64,000 nucleotides of DNA from an uncultured Candidatus Saccharibacteria bacterium (GTDB taxonomy: Bacteria > Patescibacteriota > Minisyncoccia > Phycocordibacterales > UBA9973): positions 65,737-129,736 of the forward strand of contig CAYZYV010000004.1 of NCBI GenBank assembly GCA_964482735.1. Direction: 5' to 3'. This document shows positions 463 through 22,556 of the stretch, in pieces. Made by a program: the position numbers and the translations under genes. Position 1 is the first letter of the stretch. Each line of letters opens with the position of its first letter. The notes beneath the pieces are model-generated. The model ran no database searches, had not been told where the DNA came from, and worked only from the letters and a program-made list of their open reading frames with translations.

Positions 463-2877
463 ATGCCTAAAGTTAGCCCCAAAAAAGATAAGAAAAAGAT
501 AGTTTTACTTGATTCTCATGCAATAATTCATCGAGCTTATCATGCGTTGCCAGATTTCAATAATTCACAGGGGGAGCCAACAGGTGCAATCTATGGTTTG
601 GCTACGATGCTATTTAAAATAATTACAGAGTTAAAACCTAACTATGTAATTGCCTGTTTTGATTTACCCAAAAAAACTTTTCGACACGAAGCATATGATA
701 ACTACAAAGCTGGTCGTGCAAAAGCAGATGATGCTTTGGTTCATCAACTTTCTCGAGCTAGAGATCTGTTCAAAGCACTTTCTATTCCTATGTACGAGCA
801 AGAAGGTTTTGAAGCCGATGACCTTTTAGGGACAATTACTGAGCAACTAAAAAATAAAAAAGAAGAGTATGAAATAATTATAGCGTCTGGGGATATGGAT
901 ACTCTTCAGCTAGTCAAAAAAGATTTTGTTTACGTTTATACTTTAAAAAAGGGGATAAACGATACTATCCTTTATGATGAATCCAAGGTTGTTGATAGAT
1001 TTAATTTTCCACCTTCCAGCTTGCCGGATTACAAAGGATTAAGAGGTGACCCATCTGACAACATTATTGGTATAAAAGGTATCGGAGAAAAAACAGCTAT
1101 AACTTTAGTATCTAAATATCTGACGATTGAGAATCTTTATAAGAATATTAAAAAAAACGAATCTTCTCTTAAGGAGATAGGTATAACAGAAAGGATTCTA
1201 AATCTCTTAAAAGAAGGTGAAGACGAGGCTGTCTTTTCAAAAACTCTGGCCACTATTAGATTGGATGCACCTATTAAATTTGATGTTCCAAAAGAAGATT
1301 GGATTAAAGAAGTTGATAAAGAAAAAGTTGCGAATCTTTTTAGAGAATTAGAATTTAGAAGCCTGCAGAGTAGATTCCTAAAACTTTTTGACGGAGACGA
1401 TTCAAAAAAAGAAGACAAAAAAGAGGTGGCGGGTAGCAAAGATGAAATAGAAAAAGCAAAAATTGCTTTTTGGCTTTTAAATTCAGAAAGAACAAATCCC
1501 GACATTGATGAAATAGAACATTATAATGGAAGCCGTGATTTCAAAGAAGCTTTTTCTCGATTAGAAGAAGATATCAAAAAAGAAAAATTAGAGTTTGTTT
1601 ACAAAAACATAGAGGTTCCCATTATTCCAATAATTGACAAGATGGAGAAAAACGGAGTCCTGGTTGATCTCAAATACTTTACTAAAATTAGTGAAGAATA
1701 TCACAAAGATTTAAGCGAAATAGAAAATAAGATTTTTGAACTTGCTGGACAAGAATTTAACATCAACTCACCAAAACAAATAGGAGAAGTAATTTTTGGA
1801 AAACTTGGAATTTCTACTAAAGGTATCAAAAAAAGCGCAGGTGGTTCAATCTCTACAAGAGAAAGTGAACTTGAAAAATTGGCAGATACTCACCCTGTAA
1901 TTAAAGAAATTTTGAAATATCGAGAATTACAAAAATTATTATCAACCTACATAGATACGATACCTCTTTTAGTAGGGCAGGATGGACGATTGCACGCTAG
2001 TTTTGTACAGACTGGTACGACAACCGGCCGGTTTGCTTCAAATAATCCAAATCTTCAGAATATACCAACGAGATCAGAGAGGGGGAGAAATATCCGTAAT
2101 GCATTTATCGCAAAGAATGGTTACTCCCTAATTTCTTTTGACTATTCACAAGTTGAATTAAGGATAGCTGCACTTTTATCACAAGATTCTTACTTTATAA
2201 AATCATTCAAAGAAGGGAAGGATATTCACCAGGCTGTAGCCATGAAGGTTTTTGGAGTAGACGAAAAAGGATTAACAAAAGAGATGAGAAGGCGAGCAAA
2301 AATAATTAATTTTGGAATTTTATACGGTATGGGTGTTAATGCTCTCAAACAAAATCTTTCAACTGAAGATCCAGAGACTGGTCAAAAAATAGAAGTTGGA
2401 AGACAAGAGGCTCAAGATTTTTATGATAATTATTTTGCTCAATTTCCAAAAATTGGATCATACCTAGAGAGCATAAAAGACTTTGCAAAAAAATATGGAT
2501 ACACGGTAACCTTATTTGGTAGAAAAAGATATTTTTCAACTATAAAATCACCAATTCCGTTTATTAGAGCAATGGCAGAAAGGATGGCAGTTAATGCTCC
2601 GATTCAGGGGACAGCAACTGCTGATATTATAAAAATTGGTATGCAAAAAGCCGAAGAAGCACTCCTAAAAAATAAACTACTAGATAAAGCGAATATAATT
2701 TTACAGGTTCACGATGAATTAATTTATGAAGTAAAGGATGAATATTGTGAGGAAGTATCCAGAGTTATAAAGAACGCTCTAGAAGATATTATTCCCTCAT
2801 CTTTTTTGGATGGTAGGGAGGATGTTCCGCTTGTGGTATCTGTCTCAATTGGCAAAAAATGGGGGGACCTAAAGTAG
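463..2877 (+). CDS. polA: DNA polymerase I (5'-3' exonuclease plus polymerase domains)
   Basis: 804 aa with an N-terminal FEN/5'-exo region. Pol A motifs RFASNNPNLQNIP, LISFDYSQVELR and QVHDELIYEV are present. Confidence 0.9.
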   Translation: MPKVSPKKDKKKIVLLDSHAIIHRAYHALPDFNNSQGEPTGAIYGLATMLFKIITELKPNYVIACFDLPKKTFRHEAYDNYKAGRAKADDALVHQLSRARDLFKALSIPMYEQEGFEADDLLGTITEQLKNKKEEYEIIIASGDMDTLQLVKKDFVYVYTLKKGINDTILYDESKVVDRFNFPPSSLPDYKGLRGDPSDNIIGIKGIGEKTAITLVSKYLTIENLYKNIKKNESSLKEIGITERILNLLKEGEDEAVFSKTLATIRLDAPIKFDVPKEDWIKEVDKEKVANLFRELEFRSLQSRFLKLFDGDDSKKEDKKEVAGSKDEIEKAKIAFWLLNSERTNPDIDEIEHYNGSRDFKEAFSRLEEDIKKEKLEFVYKNIEVPIIPIIDKMEKNGVLVDLKYFTKISEEYHKDLSEIENKIFELAGQEFNINSPKQIGEVIFGKLGISTKGIKKSAGGSISTRESELEKLADTHPVIKEILKYRELQKLLSTYIDTIPLLVGQDGRLHASFVQTGTTTGRFASNNPNLQNIPTRSERGRNIRNAFIAKNGYSLISFDYSQVELRIAALLSQDSYFIKSFKEGKDIHQAVAMKVFGVDEKGLTKEMRRRAKIINFGILYGMGVNALKQNLSTEDPETGQKIEVGRQEAQDFYDNYFAQFPKIGSYLESIKDFAKKYGYTVTLFGRKRYFSTIKSPIPFIRAMAERMAVNAPIQGTATADIIKIGMQKAEEALLKNKLLDKANIILQVHDELIYEVKDEYCEEVSRVIKNALEDIIPSSFLDGREDVPLVVSVSIGKKWGDLK

Positions 2878-2895
2878 TGGTATTTTTTTCACAAG

Positions 2896-3411
2896 GTGGT
2901 ATCATTTATTGTAGTTATGGAAAAGACGTTAAAAGAAAAAACTGAAAATAGCACAAGTAGTAAAGAGGTTGTTCACACAATGCTTATATATGTGTATGTG
3001 ATTTTCTTTATTTCGATAGTTTTAGGAGTTTTGTTCGATTTAATTTTTAAACTAAATCTTTTGGCTGATTTTGAGTACTCACATTTTGGTTTTATTTTGA
3101 TCATATTTGGAACCCTTTTAATTTTCTTGGCTCAACAGGCATCTTCTAGGGCCAGTAAAATATCAAAGGAAAAAGAAAGCCTTGAAGGATTTATGTATGG
3201 ACCATACAAACACTTCAGACATCCAACTTATCTAGGAGTATTCTTTATGGTTTTAGGTTTTGGAATTGCAATAAAATCTATCTTCTCTATTTTGTTCATA
3301 ATGATCACTTATCTTATTGTGAAGCTAACTTTTGTAAGAAGAGAAGAAAATATTCTAGAGAAAAAATACGGAAAAATTTATTTAGACTATAAAAATAGGG
3401 TTAGGATGTAA
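2896..3411 (+). CDS. Isoprenylcysteine carboxyl methyltransferase / phospholipid methyltransferase family membrane protein
   Basis: Multi-TM protein with the C-terminal FRHPTYLGVFFMVLGFGI motif typical of ICMT/PEMT enzymes. Confidence 0.55.
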   Translation: MVSFIVVMEKTLKEKTENSTSSKEVVHTMLIYVYVIFFISIVLGVLFDLIFKLNLLADFEYSHFGFILIIFGTLLIFLAQQASSRASKISKEKESLEGFMYGPYKHFRHPTYLGVFFMVLGFGIAIKSIFSILFIMITYLIVKLTFVRREENILEKKYGKIYLDYKNRVRM

Positions 3412-3412
3412 T

Positions 3413-4066
3413 ATGATTTACCTTGTTTATGGTAATGATAATAAAAAAAAGAATGCCTTTGTCAAAAAAGTGTCAAAGGTTTTTTCTGTGGTTATCTTAG
3501 AGTCAGAAGATCTTGATAAAGAAAGCATTCTTTCCTATACATCAGCAAACAGTCTATTTGGTGAAAAAACCGCTGTAATTATAGAGGGGCTAACTAAAAC
3601 TAATATAGAATTTAAAAACAATGAATTAGACATGCTTTCTAAGTCTAGCAATGCTTTTATTTTAATTGAAGACAAACTCTTAGCGCCAGAAGTTAGTAAG
3701 TTTAAAAAGTTTGCAACCATAGAAGTATTCAACGAAGAGAAAGCCACCAGTAAGAGTGATTCAAAAGAAAATTTTGCAATAGCAGAAAGTTTTGGTTCCA
3801 GAAATAAATTTAAGACATGGTTGATATACAAAGACCTAATTTCAAAAAATACTACACCAGAAGAAATCAGCGGAATACTCTTTTGGAAAATAAAAATGTT
3901 AATGACTTATCAAAATAAAAATTTTACAAAAGAAGAACTAAAAAAGATTTCAAGCAACCTCGTTTCTTTATATCATGACGCCCATCTAGGGAAGAGGGAC
4001 TTTTCTATTGGTTTAGAGCAGTTTATACTATCGTCTCTTAATAAAAACCAAAAAGAAAAGGCCTAG
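3413..4066 (+). CDS. holA: Putative DNA polymerase III delta subunit (HolA-like)
   Basis: 217 aa with an N-terminal (M)IYLVYGND start typical of delta subunits, directly after polA. Weak similarity only. Confidence 0.4.
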   Translation: MIYLVYGNDNKKKNAFVKKVSKVFSVVILESEDLDKESILSYTSANSLFGEKTAVIIEGLTKTNIEFKNNELDMLSKSSNAFILIEDKLLAPEVSKFKKFATIEVFNEEKATSKSDSKENFAIAESFGSRNKFKTWLIYKDLISKNTTPEEISGILFWKIKMLMTYQNKNFTKEELKKISSNLVSLYHDAHLGKRDFSIGLEQFILSSLNKNQKEKA

Positions 4067-4388
4067 GAGTCAGCCCTCAATTCTTTGAGAAATGGCTCCT
4101 AAGCCTTTGCTTAATTTTTTAATGAAAGAACATGTCCTTAATCGGACAAAATATATAATGTACTGTTTGTTTGTGTTTAAATCTTCTCGATTTGTTTTTT
4201 GTGAACCCTATTATCGTCGGGTGAACGTTCTTGAAGATTTTTATTACAAATTACTCTTAAATATATTATAACATTATTAATATTTTAGTGCAACTAAATT
4301 ATTGGGACAAAAAGAATATATGCCCAAAGTTGTTGATTTTTGTTGCAGATTATGGTAATTTATAAGGGTTAATTCGTTAACAGAAAAC

Positions 4389-4576: not shown

Positions 4577-4738
4577 TGGTCCGCCCGAGCAAGCAAACTG
4601 TTTTGCTTGCGTGTAGGAATCGAACGGCGGAGTCATATTTTTTCACCAGAGAAAATAGACGAGCGGGTGACCAGACAAAACTTTTTGACGAAAAAGTTTT
4701 AGTCGAGGTCGATAAGCGTACTCGCGGTCCTACCGGGC
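4577..4738 (-). ncRNA. Candidate structured small RNA, copy A (paralog of 13083..13230); tRNA-like 3' end with encoded ACCA
   Basis: A 68-nt core (4667..4734) is about 95 percent identical to 13083..13150 in inverted orientation. The 5' GGTAGGA can pair with the 3' TCCTAC next to a GTTCGATTCC T-loop-like motif. The 3' tail is hairpin + CGGGCGG + ACCA. The locus sits between terminators. Confidence 0.35.
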
Positions 4739-6671: not shown

Positions 6672-7238
6672 ATGAAACTTAAACACACAAGGGCTTATTT
6701 TAAAGAAAATGTTTTGAAAGGAAGAATAGACCACCTTATAGAGCATCGTATTCCATGGCTCGTCCTAGGGCTTCTAGGGGGTATAATTTCAACTGTTATC
6801 ATCTCAAACTATGAAGAGATACTATCCTCAGACATTAGAATAGCGTTTTTTATCACCGTGATTGTCTATTTAAGTGACGCTGTTGGTTCTCAGACAGAAT
6901 CTGTCTACGTCAGAGCTTTAGCCGGTGGTAAAAAAATAGACATTAAAAAATATCTTTTTAGAGAGAGCTTGATTGGTTCAGGACTTGGAATCCTTTCTGG
7001 TCTTGCTATGTTTGTTTTTGTTTTGTTTTGGATGAAGTCTCTTACCATCGCCACGACAGTTGGTTTAACAATGCTCATAAATCTTTCTATTGCTCCCGTC
7101 CTTGCTATTCTTATACCTAGCTTGATAAACAAAGAAAACATGGATCCCGCACTGGGGGCAGGCCCAATCTCAACTATTATTCAAGATATGATTAGTATTC
7201 TTGTTTACTTTTTAATCGCAAGCGTTATTGTTTTTTAG
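6672..7238 (+). CDS. MgtE-family divalent cation transporter, membrane domain only
   Basis: TM protein whose C-terminal DPALGAGPISTIIQDMISILVYF matches the MgtE transmembrane signature. Confidence 0.6.
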   Translation: MKLKHTRAYFKENVLKGRIDHLIEHRIPWLVLGLLGGIISTVIISNYEEILSSDIRIAFFITVIVYLSDAVGSQTESVYVRALAGGKKIDIKKYLFRESLIGSGLGILSGLAMFVFVLFWMKSLTIATTVGLTMLINLSIAPVLAILIPSLINKENMDPALGAGPISTIIQDMISILVYFLIASVIVF

Positions 7239-7736
7239 ATGGAAAAAATATTAAATTCAAAAAAAATAAAAGAATCAGTTTTGGTTCTGCTTGATATTCG
7301 TTCAGCCATAAACGTTGGAGCTATTTTTCGTACCGCAGATGCGGTTGGAATAAATAAAATCTTTCTAGTCGGTGTTACACCTCGACCAACAGACCAATTT
7401 GGGAGAATTCAAAAAGATATTGCGAAAAGTGCTCTCGGAGCAGAAAATTTTGTTAGCTGGGAATACGAAAAAGACGCTGTCTCACTTATAAAAAAGTTAA
7501 GAAAAAATAATTACGAAATTGTTGCGCTAGAACAAGATAAAAATTCTGTTGATTATCGTAATGTTAAGGTTGCACCTAAAATGGCCTTCCTTTTAGGGCA
7601 AGAGGTGAGTGGAATAGATAAGGATATATTAAAGAGATGCAACCAAATAGCAGAGATTCCGATGTCTGGCAAAAAAGAATCTTTAAATGTTTCTGTGGCT
7701 TGTGGAGTTTTTCTTTTCAGGGTATTCCAACAGTAA
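7239..7736 (+). CDS. SpoU/TrmH-family RNA 2'-O-methyltransferase
   Basis: 165 aa with SPOUT motifs AIFRTADAVG and the EIPMSG...SLNVSVA knot region. Confidence 0.75.
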   Translation: MEKILNSKKIKESVLVLLDIRSAINVGAIFRTADAVGINKIFLVGVTPRPTDQFGRIQKDIAKSALGAENFVSWEYEKDAVSLIKKLRKNNYEIVALEQDKNSVDYRNVKVAPKMAFLLGQEVSGIDKDILKRCNQIAEIPMSGKKESLNVSVACGVFLFRVFQQ

Positions 7737-13230: not shown

Positions 13231-13279
13231 AAAACAGTAAGACCCAAATATCTTCATATCTGGGTCAAACTGTTTTATG
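13231..13279. terminator. Bidirectional terminator hairpin
   Basis: gtaaaacagtaa-gaccca-loop-tgggtc-aaactgtttta nested inverted repeats. Confidence 0.5.
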
Positions 13280-13280
13280 T

Positions 13281-13397
13281 GATCCCGGCAGGAATCGAAC
13301 CTGCATCATAACTTCCGCAAAGTTACGTCCTATCCCCGCCCGACTGGAACGACCACTAATCTTGTCCAGTCGTTCGGGCGGGCATTGAATGACAACG
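13281..13397 (-). pseudogene. Partial tRNA-Arg-like copy (D-arm to 3' end, lacks 5' acceptor strand) carrying a 48-nt GC hairpin insert in the D-loop
   Basis: Anticodon arm TAACT-TTGCGGA-AGTTA, T-arm GCAGG-TTCGATT-CCTGC, and 3' CGGGATC-A. Insert 13336..13383 ccgcccga...tcgttcgggcgggc. Confidence 0.5.
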
Positions 13398-13401
13398 CTT
13401 G

Positions 13402-13473
13402 TGCTCTCAGTAGGAATCGAACCTACATCATAACTTCCGCAAAGTTACGTTCTATCCATTGAACTATGAGAGC
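13402..13473 (-). tRNA. tRNA-Arg (anticodon GCG as read from the loop)
   Basis: Perfect cloverleaf on the minus strand: GCTCTCA-TA-GTTC-AATGGATA-GAAC-G-TAACT-TTGCGGA-AGTTA-TGAT-GTAGG-TTCGATT-CCTAC-TGAGAGC-A. Confidence 0.75.
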
Positions 13474-15231: not shown

Positions 15232-15468
15232 ATGACCATAAAAGAATTTTCTAATAAAAACAGTGTTGCTTTATTATATTCAAACATAATATTACTTGCT
15301 TTGGTGGTGGTTCTCTTTTTCTCGCTAGCATACGAAGGGGGGAAGACAAGAGAAAAACTAAAAGTAGAGGATTATAGAATTAAAGAAAATCAAATGTTAA
15401 ATATAAACCAAGATGGCGCATCAAAAACAACCTCGATAACGGTTAATGTCGTTCCTGATAAAGAATAA
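15232..15468 (+). CDS. Hypothetical small membrane protein
   Basis: 78-aa ORF with one TM helix. Confidence 0.3.
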   Translation: MTIKEFSNKNSVALLYSNIILLALVVVLFFSLAYEGGKTREKLKVEDYRIKENQMLNINQDGASKTTSITVNVVPDKE

Positions 15469-15476
15469 AAATTAAA

Positions 15477-15917
15477 CTATTTGTTTTTAGTAATTAAATT
15501 CTGTACCAGTTTATAGATTTTTTCGTATGTTTCCTCTGCGATTTTTTGATCAACATGATTTGGGTTTTCTATGTTCCACCAAATTACCTTGCTGTTATTC
15601 TTTAGAAAATCTGGAATAAAAGGTTCTTCTGCCATAGAAATCATCACTTCATAATCATTAACCATAGAAGGTAATAGCTTTTTAGTGGTATTGTCTCGGA
15701 CATTCATACCGTTTCTCTCCATTATTTCAAAAAAATCTGGAGTTTTAAAAAGGCCTGATAACTTTTGACCCTCTGGTTCATCCGGAGCTCCGACGTAAGT
15801 GCCAACAGAATCAGCATCATTGGAGTTTGTGAGTTTATTATAAATAGCTGCAGCCATTTGGCTTCTAAACCAATTGCCTTTACATATAAATAGTACTTTT
15901 TTATTTTTGTAAATCAC
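15477..15917 (-). CDS. Low-molecular-weight protein-tyrosine phosphatase / ArsC-type arsenate reductase family
   Basis: CX5R P-loop VLFICKGNWFRSQMAAA near the N-terminus. Confidence 0.7.
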   Translation of the reverse strand: MIYKNKKVLFICKGNWFRSQMAAAIYNKLTNSNDADSVGTYVGAPDEPEGQKLSGLFKTPDFFEIMERNGMNVRDNTTKKLLPSMVNDYEVMISMAEEPFIPDFLKNNSKVIWWNIENPNHVDQKIAEETYEKIYKLVQNLITKNK

Positions 15918-15927
15918 CTGAATATTT

Positions 15928-16392
15928 TTATTTGTTTACAAGACCACCAATATAGCTTGCTTCGTAAATACATTTTTCATTTTTGAATATTTTCTCAGTT
16001 CCAGAAAATTTTTCTACACCACCAACTAATTTGTTCTCATATCTCCATTCGTCTTTTTTGTATTCGATAGGACCGCGATAGGGCATATCAACCGTTGTGT
16101 TTGAGAGCGACTCCGTAAGAAAACCGTACACCTCTTTATTTACCCCGTCGTAGACTAAACCGTAATAGACCATCATCCAAACGGGTTTGTTTTCAAAGAA
16201 AATAACTTCGCGACCTCCGTATGGTTCTCCTCCAAAAAAATTATCGTGGTATTTATATAGATCATTTTCGTATTCGATAGTTGTAGAACCGTCCGGTTGC
16301 TTTTTCCAGATATTTTCGTCTCCCGAAGCATATGTTGATCGGTTAGCTTCAAATATGAATTTTTTTAGATTTGCTGTATTAAATGTGTTCAT
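15928..16392 (-). CDS. Hypothetical protein
   Basis: 154-aa ORF with no motif recognized. Confidence 0.45.
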   Translation of the reverse strand: MNTFNTANLKKFIFEANRSTYASGDENIWKKQPDGSTTIEYENDLYKYHDNFFGGEPYGGREVIFFENKPVWMMVYYGLVYDGVNKEVYGFLTESLSNTTVDMPYRGPIEYKKDEWRYENKLVGGVEKFSGTEKIFKNEKCIYEASYIGGLVNK

Positions 16393-16644
16393 GTAAATAA
16401 TTATATTATAATTCTAGTTTTTTAGGTATTTGCATTGTAAGATTGTACAACTATTCTTTTTAACCCTATTGGTTGCTAGGGTATATAATCCAGTCTGTTT
16501 GTACAAAAAAGTCCTTATTTCCCATAATTGCTTTAGCTTTTTTGCTTTCTTTGATATCCAAACCGTATCTTTCTGTATATACATCAGAAAGATTATTAAT
16601 TATTTTCTCTTTTATTCTTTCAAATTTTATATTTTCTTCAGTCA

Positions 16645-17244
16645 TCATCCTTTCAATCTCATCCCTAGAAGAAAAAAGCGCTCACCCCTTTTCAATTTTG
16701 GTATTTCCCCACTGAATAGTAGATTAATTTTCTGTCTCCATATATTAGGATTTGTATTTTCGGATCCAGCATGTTCAATAAGTGCAAATTTTCTAGTAGT
16801 TCGAGCTATCTCTTTTATTATTTTTTTCTGTCTTTCAAAAAAGTTCCACTGAAGTACAAATCTTACAACTGATACGTCGATGCTATTATCTTTAAATGGC
16901 AAATTTTCGGCATTTGCAATTATTTTCTCATCGAGATTGTTTTCAGATAAGGCCCTCTCGTTTATATCAACTGCTATTGTGTGAAAATCATATTCCGGGG
17001 TAATCTGAAGTAATTTATTTACTAATTCTCCTTTAAAAGACTCGATATCACCAATGGTGTATTTTTTACCAGAAGGCAATCTCTTTCTAATTTCGTTTGA
17101 AAGCAAACCCGGGGTTTCATTGTAAGTCTCCTGAGATGCTTTTGTTTTTGCTTCCCCGTAAAAAACTTTTGAAGTATTTTTACCCATATCCTGAATCCCC
17201 ACAGCCTCACTTTTTTGATCTATTTTGTTTGGTTTTTCTTTCAC
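16645..17244 (-). CDS. Hypothetical protein, possibly degenerate SAM-methyltransferase-like
   Basis: ENLPFKDNSIDVSVVRFVLQW resembles methyltransferase motif IV-V regions, but no clear GxGxG motif is present. Confidence 0.4.
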   Translation of the reverse strand: MKEKPNKIDQKSEAVGIQDMGKNTSKVFYGEAKTKASQETYNETPGLLSNEIRKRLPSGKKYTIGDIESFKGELVNKLLQITPEYDFHTIAVDINERALSENNLDEKIIANAENLPFKDNSIDVSVVRFVLQWNFFERQKKIIKEIARTTRKFALIEHAGSENTNPNIWRQKINLLFSGEIPKLKRGERFFLLGMRLKG

Positions 17245-17345
17245 TTGTAAATTATACCTTAAATATATAATTTAAGGTATTTGAGTTTTCTGATACTTTA
17301 TTTCTTTGCGGGTCATGTGAGTTCAGTACCCACAATACTAATGTT
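17245..17345 (-). promoter_or_regulatory. Promoter/leader with near-perfect palindromic operator (accttaaatatataatttaaggt); paralog at 18156..18250
   Basis: A ~90-nt direct repeat lies upstream of two consecutive minus-strand genes and contains a TATAAT-like box overlapping a 23-bp palindrome. Confidence 0.45.
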
Positions 17346-17381: not shown

Positions 17382-18155
17382 CTAGCCCTGTGAGTCTTGC
17401 TTATTTTCAATAAATTGTTTAAAACCCTCTATGTCTTGATTAGATCCTAATATATGAATTTGTTCTGATGAGTTAAATACTGCGATATCATCACCAAGAG
17501 TACCTTGTTCTACCACGTTTTTAATTATCGTACCATCAAACTCATTTTTTCTAGCATACTCTGCAATTTCATCAGTGGAAATATCTGACACAACAACCTC
17601 ATCAACTGTATAAAATTGTTTAGCATTCTGGTATTGTTTGGTTTTAAATATATCTGATTTTGATGAAAAATATTCTGACTTTATATCAAATTCATCAGTT
17701 GCATCTAATCCAGTTTCTTTATCAACAACCTTATACCCAACTCCCTGATAATTTGCCCCTTTAAAATCTACCTCGTAAGGATTTGTAATATCTATGATTA
17801 CTGAATATATTTTTTCACCCCCCTCATACGAAGTTCCAAGTGGAATACTTTTAAAATATTGTTTTGCTACTTCATAGTTTTTAGTAAAAAAGACAACATT
17901 ATCAGGAGTCCCATACGCTTTAGATTTTATGTCTTCAGATGTATTATCAAACTCATCAAATGTGCTAGCACTGCCATGATATACGATATCTTTTATCTTA
18001 CTCTCTGGGAAAATAGTATCTAAATATTCAGAATATTGTTCTTTTGTCCCAATTTGTACTAATTCTGGATTTTGTTCAAATACAAAATCCACACCCTCTC
18101 TAATGTTAGGTTTTTCTACTCTATTTTCTTGGGTTATTTTTGGCAATCCTTCCAT
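17382..18155 (-). CDS. Hypothetical protein
   Basis: 257-aa ORF with no confident family assignment. Confidence 0.45.
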   Translation of the reverse strand: MEGLPKITQENRVEKPNIREGVDFVFEQNPELVQIGTKEQYSEYLDTIFPESKIKDIVYHGSASTFDEFDNTSEDIKSKAYGTPDNVVFFTKNYEVAKQYFKSIPLGTSYEGGEKIYSVIIDITNPYEVDFKGANYQGVGYKVVDKETGLDATDEFDIKSEYFSSKSDIFKTKQYQNAKQFYTVDEVVVSDISTDEIAEYARKNEFDGTIIKNVVEQGTLGDDIAVFNSSEQIHILGSNQDIEGFKQFIENKQDSQG

Positions 18156-18250
18156 ATATGTAAATTATACCATAAATATATAATTTGAGATACTTGAGTC
18201 TTCCGATACTTTGTTTTTATTGCGGGGATACTCGTGTTAGGACTTTTCAC
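18156..18250 (-). promoter_or_regulatory. Second copy of the palindromic-operator promoter/leader
   Basis: About 75 percent identical to 17245..17345, including the palindrome and the -10 region. Confidence 0.45.
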
Positions 18251-18296
18251 TGACAAGCCCCATAAGGTTATTTTTAATAAATTTATTTTACCATAA

Positions 18297-18315
18297 CGAC
18301 GTATCTCGTGCGAAC
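18297..18315 (+). repeat. Putative att-like repeat L of the serine-integrase element (aacgacgtatctcgtgcga)
   Basis: It matches 21907..21925 (aacgacacatctcgtgcta) at 16 of 19 positions, and the pair bracket the integrase and its cargo. Confidence 0.4.
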
Positions 18316-18451
18316 CAAAAAAGTGACAAAAGTGACACTACTTAAGCATATAAAGTTACATATAAATGTCACTTTTTAACAATGATTATGAGACGAATCC
18401 ATAGTTCTGCATAGACTTAGCAAAACTATTGTTCTCTGACACCACTAGTAT

Positions 18452-19771
18452 ATGGAAACATATACAACAGCTAGGATTAATAAGGAAATATTGATTCAAG
18501 CACCAAAAATTAAATATGTATTGTATGCTCGTAAATCAACCGAATCAGAAGAAAGACAAGTGCTTTCTATTGATTCACAAGTTAAAGAAATGTTACAACT
18601 TGCTGAACGAGATGGTTTAGAAGTGGTTGAGATTAGAAGAGAATCACATAGTGCTAAAGAATCAGGTCAAAGACCTGTATACAGAGAAATATTAGAAGAT
18701 ATACGACGAGGTAGGTTTAATGGAATACTAACATGGGCACCAGATAGACTTTCAAGAAATGCAGGTGATTTAGGAAGTATAGTTGATTTAATGGATCAAC
18801 AATTGCTTTTAGAAATAAGAACATATGGGCAACATTTTAAGAATTCACCAAATGAAAAGTTTCTGTTAATGATTCTCTGTTCTCAGGCAAAACTTGAGAA
18901 TGATAACAAAAGTGTAAACGTAAAACGTGGATTAAGAACAAGGTGTGAAATGGGTTTGCGACCAGGAGTAGCACCAACTGGATACTTGAATGAAAAAAGA
19001 ACAGATAGGAAATGCCAAGCAATATTAGACCCAGAACGAGCACCAACTATCAAAAAGATGTTTGAGAAAGTAGCCTATGAACACTGGAGTGGGAGAAAAT
19101 TATATAACTGGCTTCGATTTGATTTAAACTTCAGAACATCTAATGGAAAGAAACATCTAAGTTTAGGCAATATATACAAGATACTAGATAATCCTTTCTA
19201 TTATGGAGTATTTGAATATCCTAAAAAATCTGGTAATTGGTATACAGGACAACACGAACCGTTAATAACAAAAGAATTATTTAACTTAGTCCAAGATCAA
19301 ATCAAAAGTAATGTGCTTCGAATTGAAAACAAAGAATTTGCCTTCACAAAAATGATGACTTGTGGACTTTGTGGATCTGGAATATCAGCCGACGAGAAGT
19401 TTAAGAAATACAAGAATGGAACTATTACAAGATATGTATATTATGGTTGTACTAAAGCTAGAGGTACCGACTGTAAATGTGGTTATACCGAAGAAAAAAA
19501 TATTCTCAAACAATTTGAGGAGTTAATTGAAAAAATAGATCTCAACGAGATCCAAATAAAAGAAAAAATAAAAGCTGATGTTGAAAAGTTCTCTAAAATG
19601 CAAAATTTCTTTTTAGGGACAAAAGAAAAACCCAAAATATCAAATATTGATATTCGAGGATATGCTAGATATGTATTGAAGGAAGGGAGTGATGTTGAGA
19701 AAAGAGAATTGTTGGGGTGTTTGAAAAGCAGGATATTGTTGAACAATAAGAAAATATCACTTTTGAGATAA
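18452..19771 (+). CDS. Large serine recombinase (phage-type integrase)
   Basis: N-terminal resolvase catalytic motif VLYARKSTESEERQVLSIDSQ, a recombinase domain, and a zinc ribbon CGLCGS...YYGCTKARGTDCKCGY. Confidence 0.85.
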   Translation: METYTTARINKEILIQAPKIKYVLYARKSTESEERQVLSIDSQVKEMLQLAERDGLEVVEIRRESHSAKESGQRPVYREILEDIRRGRFNGILTWAPDRLSRNAGDLGSIVDLMDQQLLLEIRTYGQHFKNSPNEKFLLMILCSQAKLENDNKSVNVKRGLRTRCEMGLRPGVAPTGYLNEKRTDRKCQAILDPERAPTIKKMFEKVAYEHWSGRKLYNWLRFDLNFRTSNGKKHLSLGNIYKILDNPFYYGVFEYPKKSGNWYTGQHEPLITKELFNLVQDQIKSNVLRIENKEFAFTKMMTCGLCGSGISADEKFKKYKNGTITRYVYYGCTKARGTDCKCGYTEEKNILKQFEELIEKIDLNEIQIKEKIKADVEKFSKMQNFFLGTKEKPKISNIDIRGYARYVLKEGSDVEKRELLGCLKSRILLNNKKISLLR

Positions 19772-19806
19772 TAGTAAAAATGATCATAAAATAGTATAAT
19801 CAGTAA

Positions 19807-19959
19807 ATGAGCCAGAGTATTACTAAGATTAAAAAAGAGATGGAAATAAAACTTGCAAAGCTTCGCTTGAAGCGTAAAAGTATCATTACTCAATTTAAAA
19901 AAAGAATTGAAAAAGAGAAAATTGATCAGATTAAAAATTCAATTTTAAATAAATAATTT
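19807..19959 (+). CDS. Possible small coiled-coil protein (50 aa)
   Basis: Open frame MSQSITKIKKEMEIKLAKLRLKRKSIITQFKKRIEKEKIDQIKNSILNK between the integrase and the cargo gene. It is below the ORF-track cutoff. Confidence 0.25.
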
Positions 19960-19960
19960 T

Positions 19961-21814
19961 ATGACAACACCAGAAGAACAAAATAAAATTGAAAATAATG
20001 AAATTCTAGCTACTGTTCCAGAAAATATAGAAGAAAAAGAAATCTCACCAGAGGAATTTTTAGAGATTGCAAATACAGAAGAACAAAATTTTAAACAAGA
20101 AACTACTAATGAAATAAGTAAACTTAATTCTGTTGAACTTGACCATCAAACTTTTGAAAATATTAAGAATGAAACGGGGGTAGAAATTGAATTAAATAAT
20201 CTTAATCAAGATGCAGTAATAGTTATAGAAGATTCTAAAAACCAAGTTGCTGGGACAGAAACTATAAACGAAGCAGAATATTCCACTGAAGATGATCCTC
20301 GTTTTCGTCAGATGTTAGAAAAAGAAGCATATTTTAGATTAAAAACGTATGATAAAGATTATTTTGATAAAAACTTTTCTGGGTTATCTGAGAAAGGATA
20401 TTTAATTGATCTTGATGGTAAAGAAACTATGTCTACCCCATTAATGAATATTGGAGGTAAAACAGGCGATTTAAATTATTCTGAATTTATTAATATTACG
20501 AAACAAAAGTTTTTTAACGAATATCCTGATGCTAAGGAAAAAGAAGATCAAAAATTAAAATTACAAGAAAGTGTAAAGAATGAAGAAATAAAAAAGATTT
20601 TTGAAAATCCAAACGAAGACCCATTCTTTAAAAACATCAGTGACGATGTAGATGCTTTAATGAAATACAAAAATAGTCCACGAGCATCTGTGTTTTATCA
20701 ACACATAGAGAAATTTGTAAAAGATAATCCAGAGAAAGCAAAAGCATATTTAAAATATGGAGAAGAAAATTATACTGATACAAATTCATATCAACCATCT
20801 TGGTATGAACAATTAAAACATGTAAGCCAATTTGTAAAATTAGATAATAAAAAAGAGGACAATACTTCCTCTAAGGAGGATATAAAAGAAACACAAAATA
20901 CTCCCGAGGTACAAGAAAAATATGAGAATAGAGAAGTTTCTGATGCTTTTAAAGAAGCTGGAATGCCCTTAGACTGGAAACTTGTTGGGATGTTAGAAGA
21001 ATCACAAGAACATCAAGGTGGTAGACGTGGCAGTGGTTTTACGCAAGCAAGTCGTTATATGGCAGATATTGTAAGAAGTGAACGTTCTAGTAAAGATTTT
21101 AAAATTTTTGATAATTCTTTTAGGGATGAAATTGAAGATGGATTTTTTAAAAATGGTAATCAAGATAAATTAAAAACCGTAGATTTTCGTGACTATGTTG
21201 ATAAAAACAAATTAAAAGAAATTTCTAGTAAAATAAAAGGACCAGGAAGTAAGATATTACTTGGAATGATTAGTGATATATTTAATTCTAATAATATAGA
21301 TACTAATTTATCACATCTTCCATCTTCAAAAGAAAAAATGGAAATAGGCACATGCACAACAGCAGAAAACTACTTTTTTGATTATATGAGAGGAAATACA
21401 ATGTATGGTGATAACTTTGAAAACAAAAGAGCAAAGATGAATATTTTTAAAGACGAAAAAGGAGAACCATTATTTATGGAAAAAATTGGATTAGGTGAAA
21501 ATCATTCAGCTATATCTTTAAAAGATTTTTATTTAAATGGCATTAAGATACCAGCAGGAAGTTTGGTTGCTTTGCAATATGACAAGCCAAGTGAAGGTAA
21601 ATTAACTAGTTCGGGAAATGGTAACATTTTAGATTCAAAAATATTACAAGCAGTTGAATTTTTAAGATTTACTACATTAGTAGTTAATCCAAAAGATCGT
21701 GAGCAAACTTTTGGAGAACATCTTAAATGGCAAAAAGAACAGGATATAAAGGGAGCAGAAGATTTAACCTTAAATGAAGTAATTGATAAATGTAAGAAAG
21801 AAGTGTCTGTTTAA
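19961..21814 (+). CDS. Large acidic hypothetical protein (cargo of the integrase element)
   Basis: 617 aa, E/D/K-rich, with no recognizable domain. Confidence 0.55.
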   Translation: MTTPEEQNKIENNEILATVPENIEEKEISPEEFLEIANTEEQNFKQETTNEISKLNSVELDHQTFENIKNETGVEIELNNLNQDAVIVIEDSKNQVAGTETINEAEYSTEDDPRFRQMLEKEAYFRLKTYDKDYFDKNFSGLSEKGYLIDLDGKETMSTPLMNIGGKTGDLNYSEFINITKQKFFNEYPDAKEKEDQKLKLQESVKNEEIKKIFENPNEDPFFKNISDDVDALMKYKNSPRASVFYQHIEKFVKDNPEKAKAYLKYGEENYTDTNSYQPSWYEQLKHVSQFVKLDNKKEDNTSSKEDIKETQNTPEVQEKYENREVSDAFKEAGMPLDWKLVGMLEESQEHQGGRRGSGFTQASRYMADIVRSERSSKDFKIFDNSFRDEIEDGFFKNGNQDKLKTVDFRDYVDKNKLKEISSKIKGPGSKILLGMISDIFNSNNIDTNLSHLPSSKEKMEIGTCTTAENYFFDYMRGNTMYGDNFENKRAKMNIFKDEKGEPLFMEKIGLGENHSAISLKDFYLNGIKIPAGSLVALQYDKPSEGKLTSSGNGNILDSKILQAVEFLRFTTLVVNPKDREQTFGEHLKWQKEQDIKGAEDLTLNEVIDKCKKEVSV

Positions 21815-21906
21815 TAAAAAATTGGTTAATTTTAAATAAATATCAATAAAACAAAAAAGAGTATTTAAAATACTCTTTTTTGTTTGCTAGTACATGTTTT
21901 TTATAA

Positions 21907-21925
21907 ACGACACATCTCGTGCTAT
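21907..21925 (+). repeat. Putative att-like repeat R of the serine-integrase element
   Basis: Paired with 18297..18315; it lies 10 nt beyond the 3' end of tRNA-Ser. Confidence 0.4.
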
Positions 21926-21935
21926 CACGACTCTG

Positions 21936-22022
21936 CGGAAGCGGTGAGATTCGAACTCACGAGGAGCTTTCACCCCTAACAGTTTTCAAGACTGTCTCGT
22001 TAGACCACTCCGACACGCTTCC
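21936..22022 (-). tRNA. tRNA-Ser (anticodon TGA)
   Basis: Acceptor GGAAGCG/CGCTTCC, anticodon loop CTTGAAA, long variable arm, T-arm GTGAG-TTCGAAT-CTCAC, discriminator G. Confidence 0.8.
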
Positions 22023-22037
22023 GCTACCAACATTACA

Positions 22038-22556
22038 CTATTTTGGTGTTTTTTTCAAGATACCCCTATTTTTTAATATATGTTCCTCGTAATGGCAGTT
22101 GGGGCAAAGAATTTCTAGATTTTCTTCTTTATTATCGTTTCTCTTCCTGTTTTTATGATGAATTTGTAGAATGCTTTGATTGCTGTATCCGCAACGTTCG
22201 CAAACCACCCCTCTCTTTTTAAACAATTTTATTTTTAGAGATCTTGCCTTTTTTGCGAGATCTTTTGGTCTACCAATTTTATAATTTATTCCTGTGCGAT
22301 ATATATTGGCGCACTTTCTACTACAAGTTTTCTTGTTTAAGCCAGACAAAATTGGGACACCACACACAAGACAGGGAATCTCTTTTCTACAATATATTCC
22401 ATAACATTTTTGACTACAGAATACAGTTCCATTTTTAATTTGGCCAGGTCTCCGATATATCTTCTTGTGACATATCTGACAAATGGTATTTGGTTTTCTA
22501 ATATATAATTCTTTCACTAATCCAGTATACCAAAAAAGTCTAGAATAATAAAACAC
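22038..22556 (-). CDS. HNH endonuclease (Cys-rich, probable homing-type) adjacent to tRNA-Ser
   Basis: C-terminal CERCGY...LQIHHKNRKRNDN...LEILCPNCH HNH motif, with multiple CxxC pairs upstream. Confidence 0.7.
   Translation of the reverse strand: MFYYSRLFWYTGLVKELYIRKPNTICQICHKKIYRRPGQIKNGTVFCSQKCYGIYCRKEIPCLVCGVPILSGLNKKTCSRKCANIYRTGINYKIGRPKDLAKKARSLKIKLFKKRGVVCERCGYSNQSILQIHHKNRKRNDNKEENLEILCPNCHYEEHILKNRGILKKTPK

What the first reader, a model, noticed from the sequence alone, without database searches (positions are those of the whole stretch)
18297..21925. 3.6-kb integrative element: large serine integrase plus a single 617-aa acidic cargo gene, bounded by 19-bp imperfect direct repeats at the tRNA-Ser 3' flank
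aacgacgtatctcgtgcga (18297) and aacgacacatctcgtgcta (21907) share 16 of 19 positions and bracket the serine recombinase (18452..19771), a tiny coiled-coil ORF, and a large unknown protein. The right repeat lies 10 nt beyond the 3' end of tRNA-Ser(TGA), the classic location for integrase att sites. An imperfect inverted repeat (aaaaagtgacaaaagtgacac...tgtcactttttaac, about 18321..18385) sits just upstream of the integrase start and is a candidate integrase-binding arm. A two-gene serine-integrase element is an unusually minimal island, and the cargo has no recognizable function.
Basis: partly seen in the sequence, partly recalled or inferred. Interest (0 to 1): 0.6.

Follow-up and report, generated by a model that had tools for sequence, protein, structure and literature searches.

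The report
Serine-integrase element at a tRNA-Ser end

Summary
An intact large serine recombinase (LSR, 18452-19771), a 49-aa ORF, a 617-aa protein, tRNA-Ser(TGA) and a 16/19 direct repeat are all present (repeats start at 18295 and 21906).

The boundaries need revising. Five independent relatives (L004, L011, L014, L048, L066) stop resembling the window at 18221. About a dozen loci carry the right arm fused to the left arm as a 15+2+15 imperfect palindrome. The ends are therefore the shared TGCGG at 18221-18225 and 21934-21938, with inferred crossover at GG (acceptor positions 71-72 of the tRNA). The element is about 3.71 kb.

The left end (a tRNA 3'-end mimic, then R2, GTGACA boxes and an inverted repeat) aligns across 53 metagenome loci. 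These include versions without an integrase, tandem arrays, and larger relatives with terminase genes.

The cargo is modular. Its N-domain recurs with different C-termini (one matches ART-PolyVal) and always follows the 49-aa ORF. Its C-domain models confidently (pLDDT 93.8) but has no Foldseek match in PDB or BFVD.

No empty site was found in a close relative. Mobility is inferred, not shown.

The parts
18156..18223 (.). Host-side left arm of attL (B arm). It also holds the 5' leader or promoter region of the ART-PolyVal gene (17382-18155, - strand).
   Evidence: Homologous to L014 6643-6718 (88%). No homology to L004, L011 or L066 left of 18221. A second copy lies at 17246-17299 (89% over 54 nt).
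18221..18225 (.). Left junction core TGCGG; the inferred crossover dinucleotide is GG at 18224-18225.
   Evidence: It is the only sequence shared by both junctions. It is the left edge of homology in five independent loci. It sits at the centre of the 15+2+15 palindrome in attP-form loci.
18226..18270 (+). Module 1: the element-side arm (P'). Its reverse complement mimics a tRNA 3' end (acceptor 3' strand, T-stem 3' strand, T-loop-like TTAGGAC), followed by the conserved CAAGCCC..TAAGG.
   Evidence: Conserved in 53 aligned loci (A6). With the right arm it forms a reconstructed attP, CTATCACGACTCTGC-GG-GGATACTCGTGTTAG, symmetric at 11/15 positions (binomial P about 3e-4).
18295..18313 (+). It is an internal repeat of the CGAC-N-CTCG(A/T)GC type.
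   Evidence: Lies about 70 nt inside the left end. Conserved family-wide. Resembles the outer right arm within each element examined.
18318..18338 (+). Two direct GTGACA boxes (AAAAAGTGACAAAAGTGACAC).
   Evidence: The exact 18-mer occurs in more than 120 metagenome stretches and 6 viral ones. It occurs once in the window.
18352..18375 (+). Imperfect palindrome AAAGTTACA-TATAAA-TGTCACTTT.
   Evidence: Conserved as AAAGTTACA-N7-TGT(A/C)ACTTT in most aligned loci. No consensus RNA structure on either strand.
18452..19771 (+). Large serine recombinase (integrase), 439 aa.
   Evidence: Pfam PF00239 (E 2e-19), PF07508 (E 5e-15) and PF13408 (E 5e-6). phrog_95, E 2e-60. Relative of the SPbeta integrase YokA in PDB, E 5e-15. 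Its 90%-identity cluster has 87 members, some named from Paceibacterota and Nomurabacteria MAGs.
19807..19956 (+). 49-aa lysine-rich ORF, co-inherited with the cargo's N-domain.
   Evidence: Found directly upstream of every N-domain protein whose upstream DNA could be read, with or without an integrase nearby (window/L001, L002/L003, L004/L005, L011/L012, L013). Absent from all loci recovered through the DNA motif.
19961..21814 (+). 617-aa modular cargo: N-domain aa 1-105 (19961-20275), middle aa 107-300, C-domain aa 318-617 (20912-21814).
   Evidence: Module boundaries from BLAST and phmmer against 1.84 billion proteins. The N-domain is joined to other C-termini, including a match to ART-PolyVal (P0010, recorded as weak). 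C-domain AF2 model: pLDDT 93.8, pTM 0.92. No Foldseek match in PDB or BFVD.
21849..21885 (.). Perfect 18-bp hairpin flanked by T runs (AAACAAAAAAGAGTATTT/AAATACTCTTTTTTGTTT) just after the cargo stop; a likely terminator.
   Evidence: the repeat finder I10, 100% complementary. The terminator scan called it on the - strand; the sequence is near-symmetric, so it could act in either direction.
21906..21924 (+).
   Evidence: 16/19 to R2. Conserved in L004 (3674-3683 and 4677-4686), at the L011 left junction and in L083.
21922..21936 (+). Inner half-site of the right arm (CTATCACGACTCTGC). With the preceding TCGTG it forms the hairpin TCGTG-CTAT-CACGA.
   Evidence: Nearly identical next to module 1 in L011 (ctatcacgacacTGCGG) and at the true right end of L004 (ctatcacgacttGGCGG).
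21934..21938 (.). Right junction core TGCGG; the inferred crossover GG at 21937-21938 corresponds to acceptor-stem positions 71-72 of tRNA-Ser.
   Evidence: Sequence and tRNA coordinates. The same layout (right arm + (T)GGCGG + tRNA-Ser) occurs in L023 and L011.
21936..22022 (-). tRNA-Ser(TGA), the target gene (B' arm). It is left intact; its discriminator G and 3' trailer are now supplied by the element.
   Evidence: ARAGORN. Rfam RF00005, 56.7 bits, full length.
17246..17340 (.). Relic of an older junction: a second B-arm copy followed by TTGCGGGTCATGTGAGTTCAGTAC, a degenerate tRNA-Ser 3' fragment.
   Evidence: The corresponding L014 fragment (about 6730-6750) matches that genome's tRNA-Ser 3' end over about 20 nt.

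Best explanation
The window carries an integrated element of about 3.71 kb, running from about 18224 to 21938, that is mobilised by its own large serine recombinase.

**Proposed mechanism**
- In the free circular form, the right arm (..ACACATCTCGTG CTATCACGACTCTGC) and the left arm (GGATACTCGTGTTAG GAC..) abut.
- Together they form an imperfect 15+2+15 palindrome around a GG dinucleotide. This is attP.
- Integrase dimers bound to attP and to attB synapse, cut both sites at the central dinucleotide, rotate and religate. attB consists of the last bases of the tRNA-Ser acceptor stem plus the A/T-rich trailer.
- This produces attL (18209-18240) and attR (21922-21955).
- Both sites carry TGC immediately 5' of the centre, so the tRNA keeps its discriminator G and stays intact. 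The element's left arm is a tRNA 3'-end mimic.

They are two of three direct copies of a CGAC..CTCG(T/A)GC motif: RP in the outer right arm, R1 inside module 1, and R2 about 70 nt inside the left end. Most likely these are extra protein-binding sites for the integrase or a partner that flank the crossover core in attP. They are not crossover points.

**Cargo.** It is a two-gene module, the 49-aa basic protein plus a three-part protein. The acidic N-domain probably acts as a shared adaptor for interchangeable C-terminal effector domains, in the style of polyvalent proteins. Its biochemical activity is unknown.

**Shown:** gene content, the limits of homology, attP-form junctions in relatives, and the same integrase type at different sites.

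**Inferred:** the exact crossover dinucleotide, the role of the R sites, current activity, and cargo function.
For: 1. Integrase identity: three Pfam domains, phrog_95, and relatives of SPbeta and TP901-1 integrases in PDB.
2. Left edge of homology at 18221 in five different contexts: L004 (a truncated tRNA-like sequence that I read by eye at the contig end on its left; not called by ARAGORN), L011, L014, L066 and L048.
3. L011 1478-1514 joins a right arm almost identical to the window's (one mismatch over about 25 nt) directly to module 1: catctcgtgctatcacgacacTGCGGagatcctcgtgtt.
4. With the register fixed by alignment, roughly 10-12 of 53 loci have an attP-form left arm. Six score 9-12/15 for symmetry (L057 12, L068 11, L065 11, L100 10, L032 10, L084 9), and others are recognisable by an upstream ctcgtg repeat. 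About 40 have unrelated, often A/T-rich left flanks that end in (T)GC before the centre. The window's reconstructed attP scores 11/15, P about 3e-4.
5. Right junctions with the same design at tRNA-Ser genes: window, L011 (anticodon ACT) and L023 (anticodon GCT, no integrase).
6. An unoccupied flank in a more distant relative, L015, reads aagttttttcTGCGGaggcgg. The window's reconstructed attB reads tttgtttttatTGCGGaagcgg.
7. Integrases 86-88% identical at three different sites, and a 90%-identity cluster with 87 members, some named from other CPR lineages.
8. L083 shows integrase, terminator, RP, attP core, module 1, R2 and GTGACA boxes in one continuous stretch, with RP and R2 matching 15/17.
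Against: - No empty site was found in a close relative. L014 (RuvX 88% identical) has the same ends with another interior, so this insertion may be old and no longer moving.
- The window's reconstructed attB has no dyad symmetry (2/15).
- L004's right flank beyond GGCGG is not a recognisable tRNA or Rfam RNA.
- No excised form of this subtype was found in IMG/VR.
- The breaks in similarity against L014 lie next to the 19-mers, which leaves room for exchange at those repeats.
- No recombination directionality factor was identified.
Confidence: 0.75

Rival explanations
1. One reading: the two 19-mers (R2 at 18295 and RP at 21906) are the recombination sites, so a 3.6-kb cassette (boxes, integrase, cargo) excises between them. 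Module 1 and the inner right arm would stay behind as a fixed docking platform at the tRNA.
For: Against L014, similarity breaks at 18313 and 21882, next to the 19-mers, and L014 has a different interior between the same motifs. In L004 an extra copy of the motif (3674-3683) and the terminal copy (4677-4686) bracket an additional Transglut_core gene, which looks cassette-like. R2 and RP resemble each other within each element examined.
Against: Module 1 travels with R2 in all 53 aligned loci, with many different left flanks. attP-form junctions are symmetric about the GG/TG centre, not about the 19-mers. Large serine integrases exchange at a 2-nt centre between non-identical attP and attB sites, not between long direct repeats (established knowledge). 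The L014 pattern is equally explained by homologous recombination that uses the conserved ends as arms.
Confidence: 0.1
2. The element is a vertically inherited, fixed remnant. The ends were already at this tRNA-Ser in the common ancestor with L014, and the integrase no longer moves it.
For: L014 has module 1 + R2 (86% identical) and the right arm + tRNA (78%) at the same locus. Those levels match the flanking genes (79-83%). The surrounding locus is full of relics.
Against: The integrase ORF is intact with all three domains. Its ends are equally similar (86%) to L066, which sits in an unrelated context. Integrases 86-88% identical lie at other sites, and the 90% cluster includes members named from other CPR lineages. 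Both junction half-sites are well preserved.
Confidence: 0.12
3. The integrase belongs to a larger prophage or island that extends beyond the tRNA or far to the left.
For: The left neighbours are of mobile-element type (ART-PolyVal, methyltransferase, DUF5680). An HNH gene sits on the other side of the tRNA. Larger relatives carry terminase genes.
Against: There are no phage structural or packaging genes near the element. ART-PolyVal and its leader are shared with L014 outside the element ends. Homology with L004, L011 and L066 stops at 18221. The HNH gene is a separate insertion that L014 lacks.
Confidence: 0.03

Closest known systems
Phage and prophage large serine integrases (SPbeta SprA/YokA, TP901-1, A118, Bxb1, phiC31)
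   Same: Same three-domain enzyme. An attP that is a short imperfect palindrome around a central dinucleotide. attL and attR share only a few bases.
   Different: The target is the extreme 3' end of a tRNA gene, which to my knowledge is typical of tyrosine integrases. One attP arm is a tRNA 3'-end mimic. Extra direct repeats (RP, R2) and GTGACA boxes flank the core. The hosts are CPR bacteria. The best tblastn match among 50,697 phage records is only about 28% identical.
SCC elements (SCCmec and relatives) moved by Ccr serine recombinases
   Same: The best NCBIfam hit is CcrB (E 6e-32). Both insert at the 3' end of a conserved housekeeping gene without inactivating it. Both form tandem or composite arrays and have variants that lack a recombinase (L011, L083, L069, L023, L014).
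   Different: The score is far below the Ccr cut-off (111 vs 900 bits). The target is tRNA-Ser, not rlmH. There is one recombinase gene, not a ccrAB pair. The element is far smaller and the hosts are different.
tRNA-linked genomic islands of tyrosine integrases
   Same: Location at a tRNA 3' end, serial accretion at one tRNA, and a partial tRNA 3' copy at an old junction (L014 about 6730-6750; window 17298-17322).
   Different: There is no tyrosine integrase. The current junctions share 5 nt, not a 15-60-nt copy of the tRNA.
Polyvalent proteins of phages and conjugative elements (Iyer et al. 2017, PMC5512222)
   Same: Modular proteins on mobile elements that shuffle enzymatic domains. Proteins sharing this cargo's N-domain or middle region carry ART-PolyVal-like or methyltransferase domains. 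Stand-alone ART-PolyVal and methyltransferase genes lie next door.
   Different: The window's cargo has no recognised polyvalent-protein domain. It has a fixed N-terminal module and a dedicated 49-aa partner gene, neither of which I know to be a feature of that class.

Membership tests
Large serine recombinase (serine integrase) | N-terminal resolvase catalytic domain containing the serine nucleophile motif | tested here: met
   PF00239, E 2e-19, residues 23-168. YARKSTESEERQ is visible in the translation.
Large serine recombinase (serine integrase) | Recombinase domain plus zinc-ribbon domain C-terminal to the catalytic domain | tested here: met
   PF07508, E 5e-15, and PF13408, 27.2 bits against a cut-off of 25.3. 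Aligns to SPbeta YokA over residues 25-388.
Large serine recombinase (serine integrase) | attP is a short imperfect inverted repeat around a central crossover dinucleotide | tested here: met
   Reconstructed attP symmetric at 11/15, P about 3e-4. The same register gives 9-12/15 in six attP-form relatives.
Large serine recombinase (serine integrase) | attB is also a (weak) inverted repeat, distinct from attP | tested here: inconclusive
   The reconstructed attB is distinct from attP but symmetric at only 2/15 positions.
Large serine recombinase (serine integrase) | Catalyses attP x attB integration, with excision needing a directionality factor | not testable with these tools
   No directionality factor was identified. 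The 49-aa ORF follows the cargo, not the integrase.
SCC / Ccr cassette chromosome elements | The recombinase scores as a CcrA, CcrB or CcrC equivalog | tested here: not met
   CcrB 111 bits vs cut-off 900. CcrA 45.3 vs 700. CcrC 43.3 vs 900.
SCC / Ccr cassette chromosome elements | Integration at the 3' end of rlmH (orfX) | tested here: not met
   The target is tRNA-Ser(TGA).
Tyrosine-integrase tRNA islands | A tyrosine recombinase, and direct repeats that copy 15 nt or more of the tRNA 3' part | tested here: not met
   The integrase is a serine recombinase. The junctions share only TGCGG.
Polyvalent proteins (PMC5512222) | A multi-domain protein containing domains catalogued for that class | tested here: inconclusive
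   The cargo has no Pfam hit. N-domain relative P0010 has a precomputed PF18760 hit, recorded as weak. P0006, which shares the middle region, carries PF08241.
Structured non-coding RNA (guide or bridge-like) at the element end | A conserved secondary structure with covariation, or an Rfam match | tested here: not met
   No Rfam hit at E<=1 apart from chance-level ones. RNAalifold on 53 sequences finds no structure on either strand.

The most novel reading that the evidence does not exclude
The family may be a cassette-accreting system for CPR bacteria. Because the element-side arm (P') mimics a tRNA 3' end, integration would leave an attL that still looks like an attB. Further elements could then stack up at the same tRNA, as suggested by L011, L083, L069 and the relics at window 17246-17340 and L014 about 6730. 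Cassettes without an integrase (L023, L014) could be moved in trans. The RP and R2 repeats might act as accessory sites like those of res. This would amount to an SCC- or integron-like gene-capture platform at tRNA genes, run by a single serine integrase. Its cargoes would include a polymorphic effector family (shared N-domain plus 49-aa partner) whose C-domain has no structural match in the two libraries searched.
Probability: 0.3. Interest if true: 0.75.

Novelty: new variant of a known kind. Interest (0 to 1): 0.55.

Why it matters
- **New integrase and att-site candidates.** Large serine integrases are sought-after genome-engineering tools. This adds a compact (439 aa) clade with computationally defined attP and attB candidates, and a conserved, universal class of target: the tRNA 3' end.
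- **A mobile-element family in CPR bacteria.** Mobile elements of CPR/Patescibacteria are poorly charted. Here one DNA signature of about 190 nt ties together more than 50 loci. They range from a 0.6-kb unit without an integrase to relatives with terminase genes several kb away, and they give a concrete account of how a tRNA-Ser hotspot in these tiny genomes is built.
- **A candidate effector set.** The cargo family (shared N-domain, swappable C-termini, small partner protein, confidently modelled C-domain with no structural match found) is a candidate effector set in episymbiotic bacteria.

Tried and rejected
1. **Structured or guide-like RNA at the left end.** No Rfam family matched and RNAalifold found no structure on either strand. 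The variable base of the CTCG(N)G motif agrees between module 1 and module 2 in only 27/53 loci (permutation p about 0.02). That indicates a shared consensus, not guide-like co-variation.
2. **The 49-aa ORF as the family's directionality factor.** Rejected as a general feature. It is absent from all loci recovered through the DNA motif and follows the cargo's N-domain even where no integrase is present.
3. **Empty site in a close relative.** The single genome-contig scan, using RuvX, gave L014 (occupied by a variant), L015 (virgin flank but more distant) and L016. No uninterrupted close relative was obtained.
4. **Excised form.** attP and module 1 patterns gave no hit in IMG/VR.
5. **Annotated phages.** No DNA match to the left-end region. 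The integrase matched at only about 28% identity.
7. **Promoter scan.** Uninformative, with fewer sites than in shuffles.
8. **Literature.** No paper on serine-recombinase elements of Saccharibacteria or CPR turned up.

Full report
**1. What is there**

The window is a low-GC (about 33%) genome from the Candidate Phyla Radiation. The closest genome locus found, L014, is labelled an uncultured Candidatus Saccharibacteria MAG. It shares about 80% nucleotide identity and gene order with the window.

The region contains:
- an intact 439-aa large serine recombinase (18452-19771), with Pfam Resolvase, Recombinase and Zn_ribbon_recom domains and a match to phrog_95 'integrase';
- a 49-aa lysine-rich ORF (19807-19956);
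- a 617-aa acidic protein (19961-21814) with no hit in Pfam, PHROGs, PADLOC or NCBIfam;
- a perfect 18-bp hairpin (21849-21885);
- tRNA-Ser(TGA) on the minus strand (21936-22022).

Shuffling the two intergenic stretches gave a match that good in 4 of 200 trials.

**2. Where the element really ends**

*The same three-gene unit occurs elsewhere.* The triad of integrase, 49-aa ORF and N-domain protein recurs in other contexts:
- L004: integrase 86% identical, cargo 61% identical.
- L011/L012: integrase 88% identical, with a cargo that shares only the N-domain.

It stops at TGCGG, 18221-18225. The same left edge is seen in L011, in L066 and L048, which sit in unrelated gene contexts, and in L014.

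Its last bases are the end of the tRNA acceptor stem.
- L004's true right end (4677-4700) reads acatctcgtgctatcacgacttGGCGG. It encloses an extra Transglut_core gene.
- L011's right end abuts tRNA-Ser(ACT).
- L023 has the same design at tRNA-Ser(GCT) but carries no integrase.

*The arms joined.* In L011 a right arm nearly identical to the window's is fused directly to the left arm: catctcgtgctatcacgacacTGCGGagatcctcgtgtt.

I used the exact 18-mer AAGTGACAAAAGTGACAC to collect related loci. It occurs in more than 120 metagenome stretches and 6 viral ones. I then aligned 53 left-end regions.
- With the register fixed by that alignment, roughly 10-12 loci have such a fused form.
- In these, 15 nt on each side of a central dinucleotide form an imperfect palindrome: L057 12/15, L068 11/15, L065 11/15, L100 10/15.
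- About 40 loci have unrelated, often A/T-rich left flanks that end in (T)GC just before the centre.
- The window's reconstructed site, CTATCACGACTCTGC-GG-GGATACTCGTGTTAG, is symmetric at 11/15 positions (P about 3e-4).

This is the anatomy expected of a serine-integrase attP. attL and attR share only the few bases around the crossover (established knowledge of the family). I therefore place the crossover at GG: 18224-18225 on the left and 21937-21938 on the right. The element is about 3.71 kb.

*Effect on the tRNA.* Read on the tRNA strand, the centre is acceptor positions 71-72. The conserved TGC (or TGGC) is the discriminator G plus CA (or CCA). The element's left arm copies the layout of a tRNA 3' end: acceptor 3' strand, T-stem 3' strand and a T-loop-like TTAGGAC or CTAGAAC. 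The tRNA stays intact because both partner sites carry TGC next to the centre.

**3. What the 19-mers are**

They are two of three direct copies of a CGAC..CTCG(A/T/G)GC motif:
- RP, in the outer right arm;
- R1, inside module 1;
- R2, about 70 nt inside the left end.

Within each element examined, RP and R2 resemble each other: window 14/16, L077 16/16, L083 15/17. L083 shows the whole arrangement in one continuous stretch: integrase, terminator, RP, palindromic core, module 1, R2, GTGACA boxes.

The repeat is therefore real and functional-looking, but it is internal. I tested whether the conserved 190 nt encode an RNA and found no support:
- no Rfam match;
- no consensus structure on either strand;
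- only weak agreement between the variable bases of the repeats (27/53, p about 0.02).

DNA-level protein-binding sites are the better reading. Their role is inferred, not shown.

**4. Comparison with relatives at the same locus**

*L014* (RuvX 88% identical) has no integrase. At the same tRNA-Ser it has module 1 + R2 (86% identical to the window) and the right arm + tRNA (78%). Between them lies only a 162-aa gene on the other strand. But L014 is a variant occupant, not an empty site. Either the interior was swapped using the conserved ends, or related elements inserted independently. The window's ends are equally similar (86%) to L066, which lies elsewhere in another genome.

*L015*, a more distant relative, has a virgin flank (aagttttttcTGCGGaggcgg). 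It resembles the window's reconstructed attB (tttgtttttatTGCGGaagcgg).

*Older events at the locus.*
- Window 17246-17299 repeats the host-side arm (89% over 54 nt). It is followed by a degenerate tRNA-Ser 3' fragment.
- L014 has a copy of its tRNA-Ser 3' end, about 20 nt long, near 6730-6750.
- Window 15402-17295 (phosphatase, DUF5680, methyltransferase) is replaced by other genes in L014.
- The HNH gene at 22038-22556 is absent from L014.

The tRNA-Ser locus is therefore a composite hotspot, and the integrase element is its most intact unit.

**5. The wider family**

Integrases 57-73% identical to the window's occur in loci carrying the same left-end signature. In some loci the integrase lies several kb from that signature. 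The intervening genes include a LexA-like S24 peptidase, AAA ATPases, a ParB-N6/N4 methylase, and small and large terminase subunits. For L143, an IMG/VR contig, the large terminase matches phrog_38 at E 2.5e-78.

The family also includes tandem arrays (L069, L083, L011) and units without an integrase (L023, L014).

The window integrase's 90%-identity cluster has 87 members. Some of these were named from Paceibacterota and Nomurabacteria MAGs, which points to recent horizontal spread.

I found no match to the left-end DNA in 50,697 phage records, and integrase matches there were only about 28% identical. My literature searches turned up no description of this family.

**6. The cargo**

BLAST and an exhaustive phmmer search split the 617-aa protein into three parts.

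- *N-domain (aa 1-105).* Acidic and helical. It occurs in more than 20 protein clusters with unrelated C-termini. One of these (P0010) has a match to ART-PolyVal that is recorded as weak.
- *Middle part (aa 107-300).* It recurs in P0006, which ends in a methyltransferase domain.
- *C-domain (aa 318-617).* It is a family of stand-alone proteins of about 300 aa, with well over 100 clusters at 50% identity.
  - No Pfam model matched, apart from one member fused to a histone-deacetylase-type domain.
  - Invariant residues include a G-x-C-T-x-A-E motif, one Lys and two Arg.
  - With a 43-sequence alignment, AlphaFold2 gives pLDDT 93.8 and pTM 0.92.
  - Foldseek finds nothing in PDB or BFVD (best E above 1, TM about 0.1).
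  - Stand-alone homologues have no constant neighbour.

The 49-aa ORF sits directly upstream of the N-domain gene in every locus where the upstream DNA could be read, with or without an integrase. It is absent from the motif-derived loci. It therefore belongs to the cargo and is not a family-wide excision factor.

ART-PolyVal-like and methyltransferase domains appear both fused to these modules and as neighbouring single genes. The likeliest reading is a polyvalent-protein-like, interchangeable effector set (PMC5512222). The activity remains unknown.

**7. Verdict**

The element is a new variant of a known kind. It is a serine-integrase element with these distinctive features:
- targeting of a tRNA 3' end;
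- an attP arm that mimics a tRNA 3' end;
- accessory repeats around the crossover core;
- a conserved 190-nt end shared across many CPR loci.

Current mobility, the exact crossover and cargo function remain inferences.

Noticed in passing
window 17246-17340: A second copy of the host-side arm (89% over 54 nt to 18159-18212) followed by TTGCGGGTCATGTGAGTTCAGTAC, a degenerate tRNA-Ser 3' fragment. It lies between the methyltransferase and ART-PolyVal genes and looks like the scar of an earlier integration.
   Followed up: partly
L014 about 6730-6750 vs 7550-7570: The close relative carries a copy about 20 nt long of its own tRNA-Ser 3' end (TGCGGAGGCGGTGAGATTCG) roughly 0.8 kb from the tRNA. This copy and the tRNA's own 3' end bracket a roughly 0.8-kb stretch that includes the unit without an integrase (about 0.6 kb) plus about 180 nt of unknown sequence.
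   Followed up: partly
window 22038-22556: A free-standing HNH endonuclease gene (Pfam HNH, many PHROG HNH families, ZorE-like PADLOC hits) lies between tRNA-Ser and RuvX. L014 lacks it, so it is a separate insertion.
   Followed up: partly
window 15402-17295: A block holding a low-molecular-weight phosphatase, a DUF5680 protein and a methyltransferase is replaced in L014 by two unrelated genes (274 and 131 aa). This is a second variable spot beside the ART-PolyVal gene.
   Followed up: no
window 18321-18338 and loci L018-L143: The exact 18-mer AAGTGACAAAAGTGACAC occurs in more than 120 metagenome stretches. Many lack modules 1 and 2 (e.g. L029/L035, L045, L063, L142, and long GTGA(C/T)A arrays in L122 and L106). 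The GTGACA box may therefore be a broader regulatory or binding motif than the integrase family.
   Followed up: no
L004 3674-4700: A Transglut_core gene on the opposite strand is bracketed by two copies of the ACA(C/T)CTCGTG motif inside the element, as if it had been added as an extra cassette.
   Followed up: partly
L023 (about 1580-4320) and L014 6928-7552: Members of the family without an integrase: L023 has an FtsX-like cargo at tRNA-Ser(GCT), and L014 has a single 162-aa gene. They may be mobilised in trans or may be decayed.
   Followed up: partly
L143, L047, L061, L139, L136, L074: Larger relatives carry a ParB-methylase, small and large terminase subunits, a LexA-like peptidase and AAA/OLD-like ATPases between the conserved end and the integrase. 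Pfam/PHROG confirmation was run only on L143; the others are inferred from similar ORF size and order. They may be prophage remnants or satellite-like elements of CPR hosts.
   Followed up: partly
window 20912-21814 (cargo C-domain): A confident AF2 model (pLDDT 93.8) of a widespread family of about 300 aa, with an invariant Cys/Glu/Lys/Arg set and no Foldseek match in PDB or BFVD.
   Followed up: partly
window 13279-13473: There are two tandem tRNA-Arg(GCG) genes here, where the fetched part of L014 shows only one.
   Followed up: no
L002 9720-11530 and L007 9536-11935: The small ORF plus cargo pair lies directly downstream of tRNA-Ser(GGA) in L002. In L007 an analogous pair (a 53-aa ORF that did not match the 49-aa query, plus a protein sharing only the middle region) lies downstream of tRNA-Tyr. 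No integrase gene lies nearby in either, and no family end-sequences were seen in the stretches of L002 that I read. The cargo pair seems to move by more than one route.
   Followed up: no
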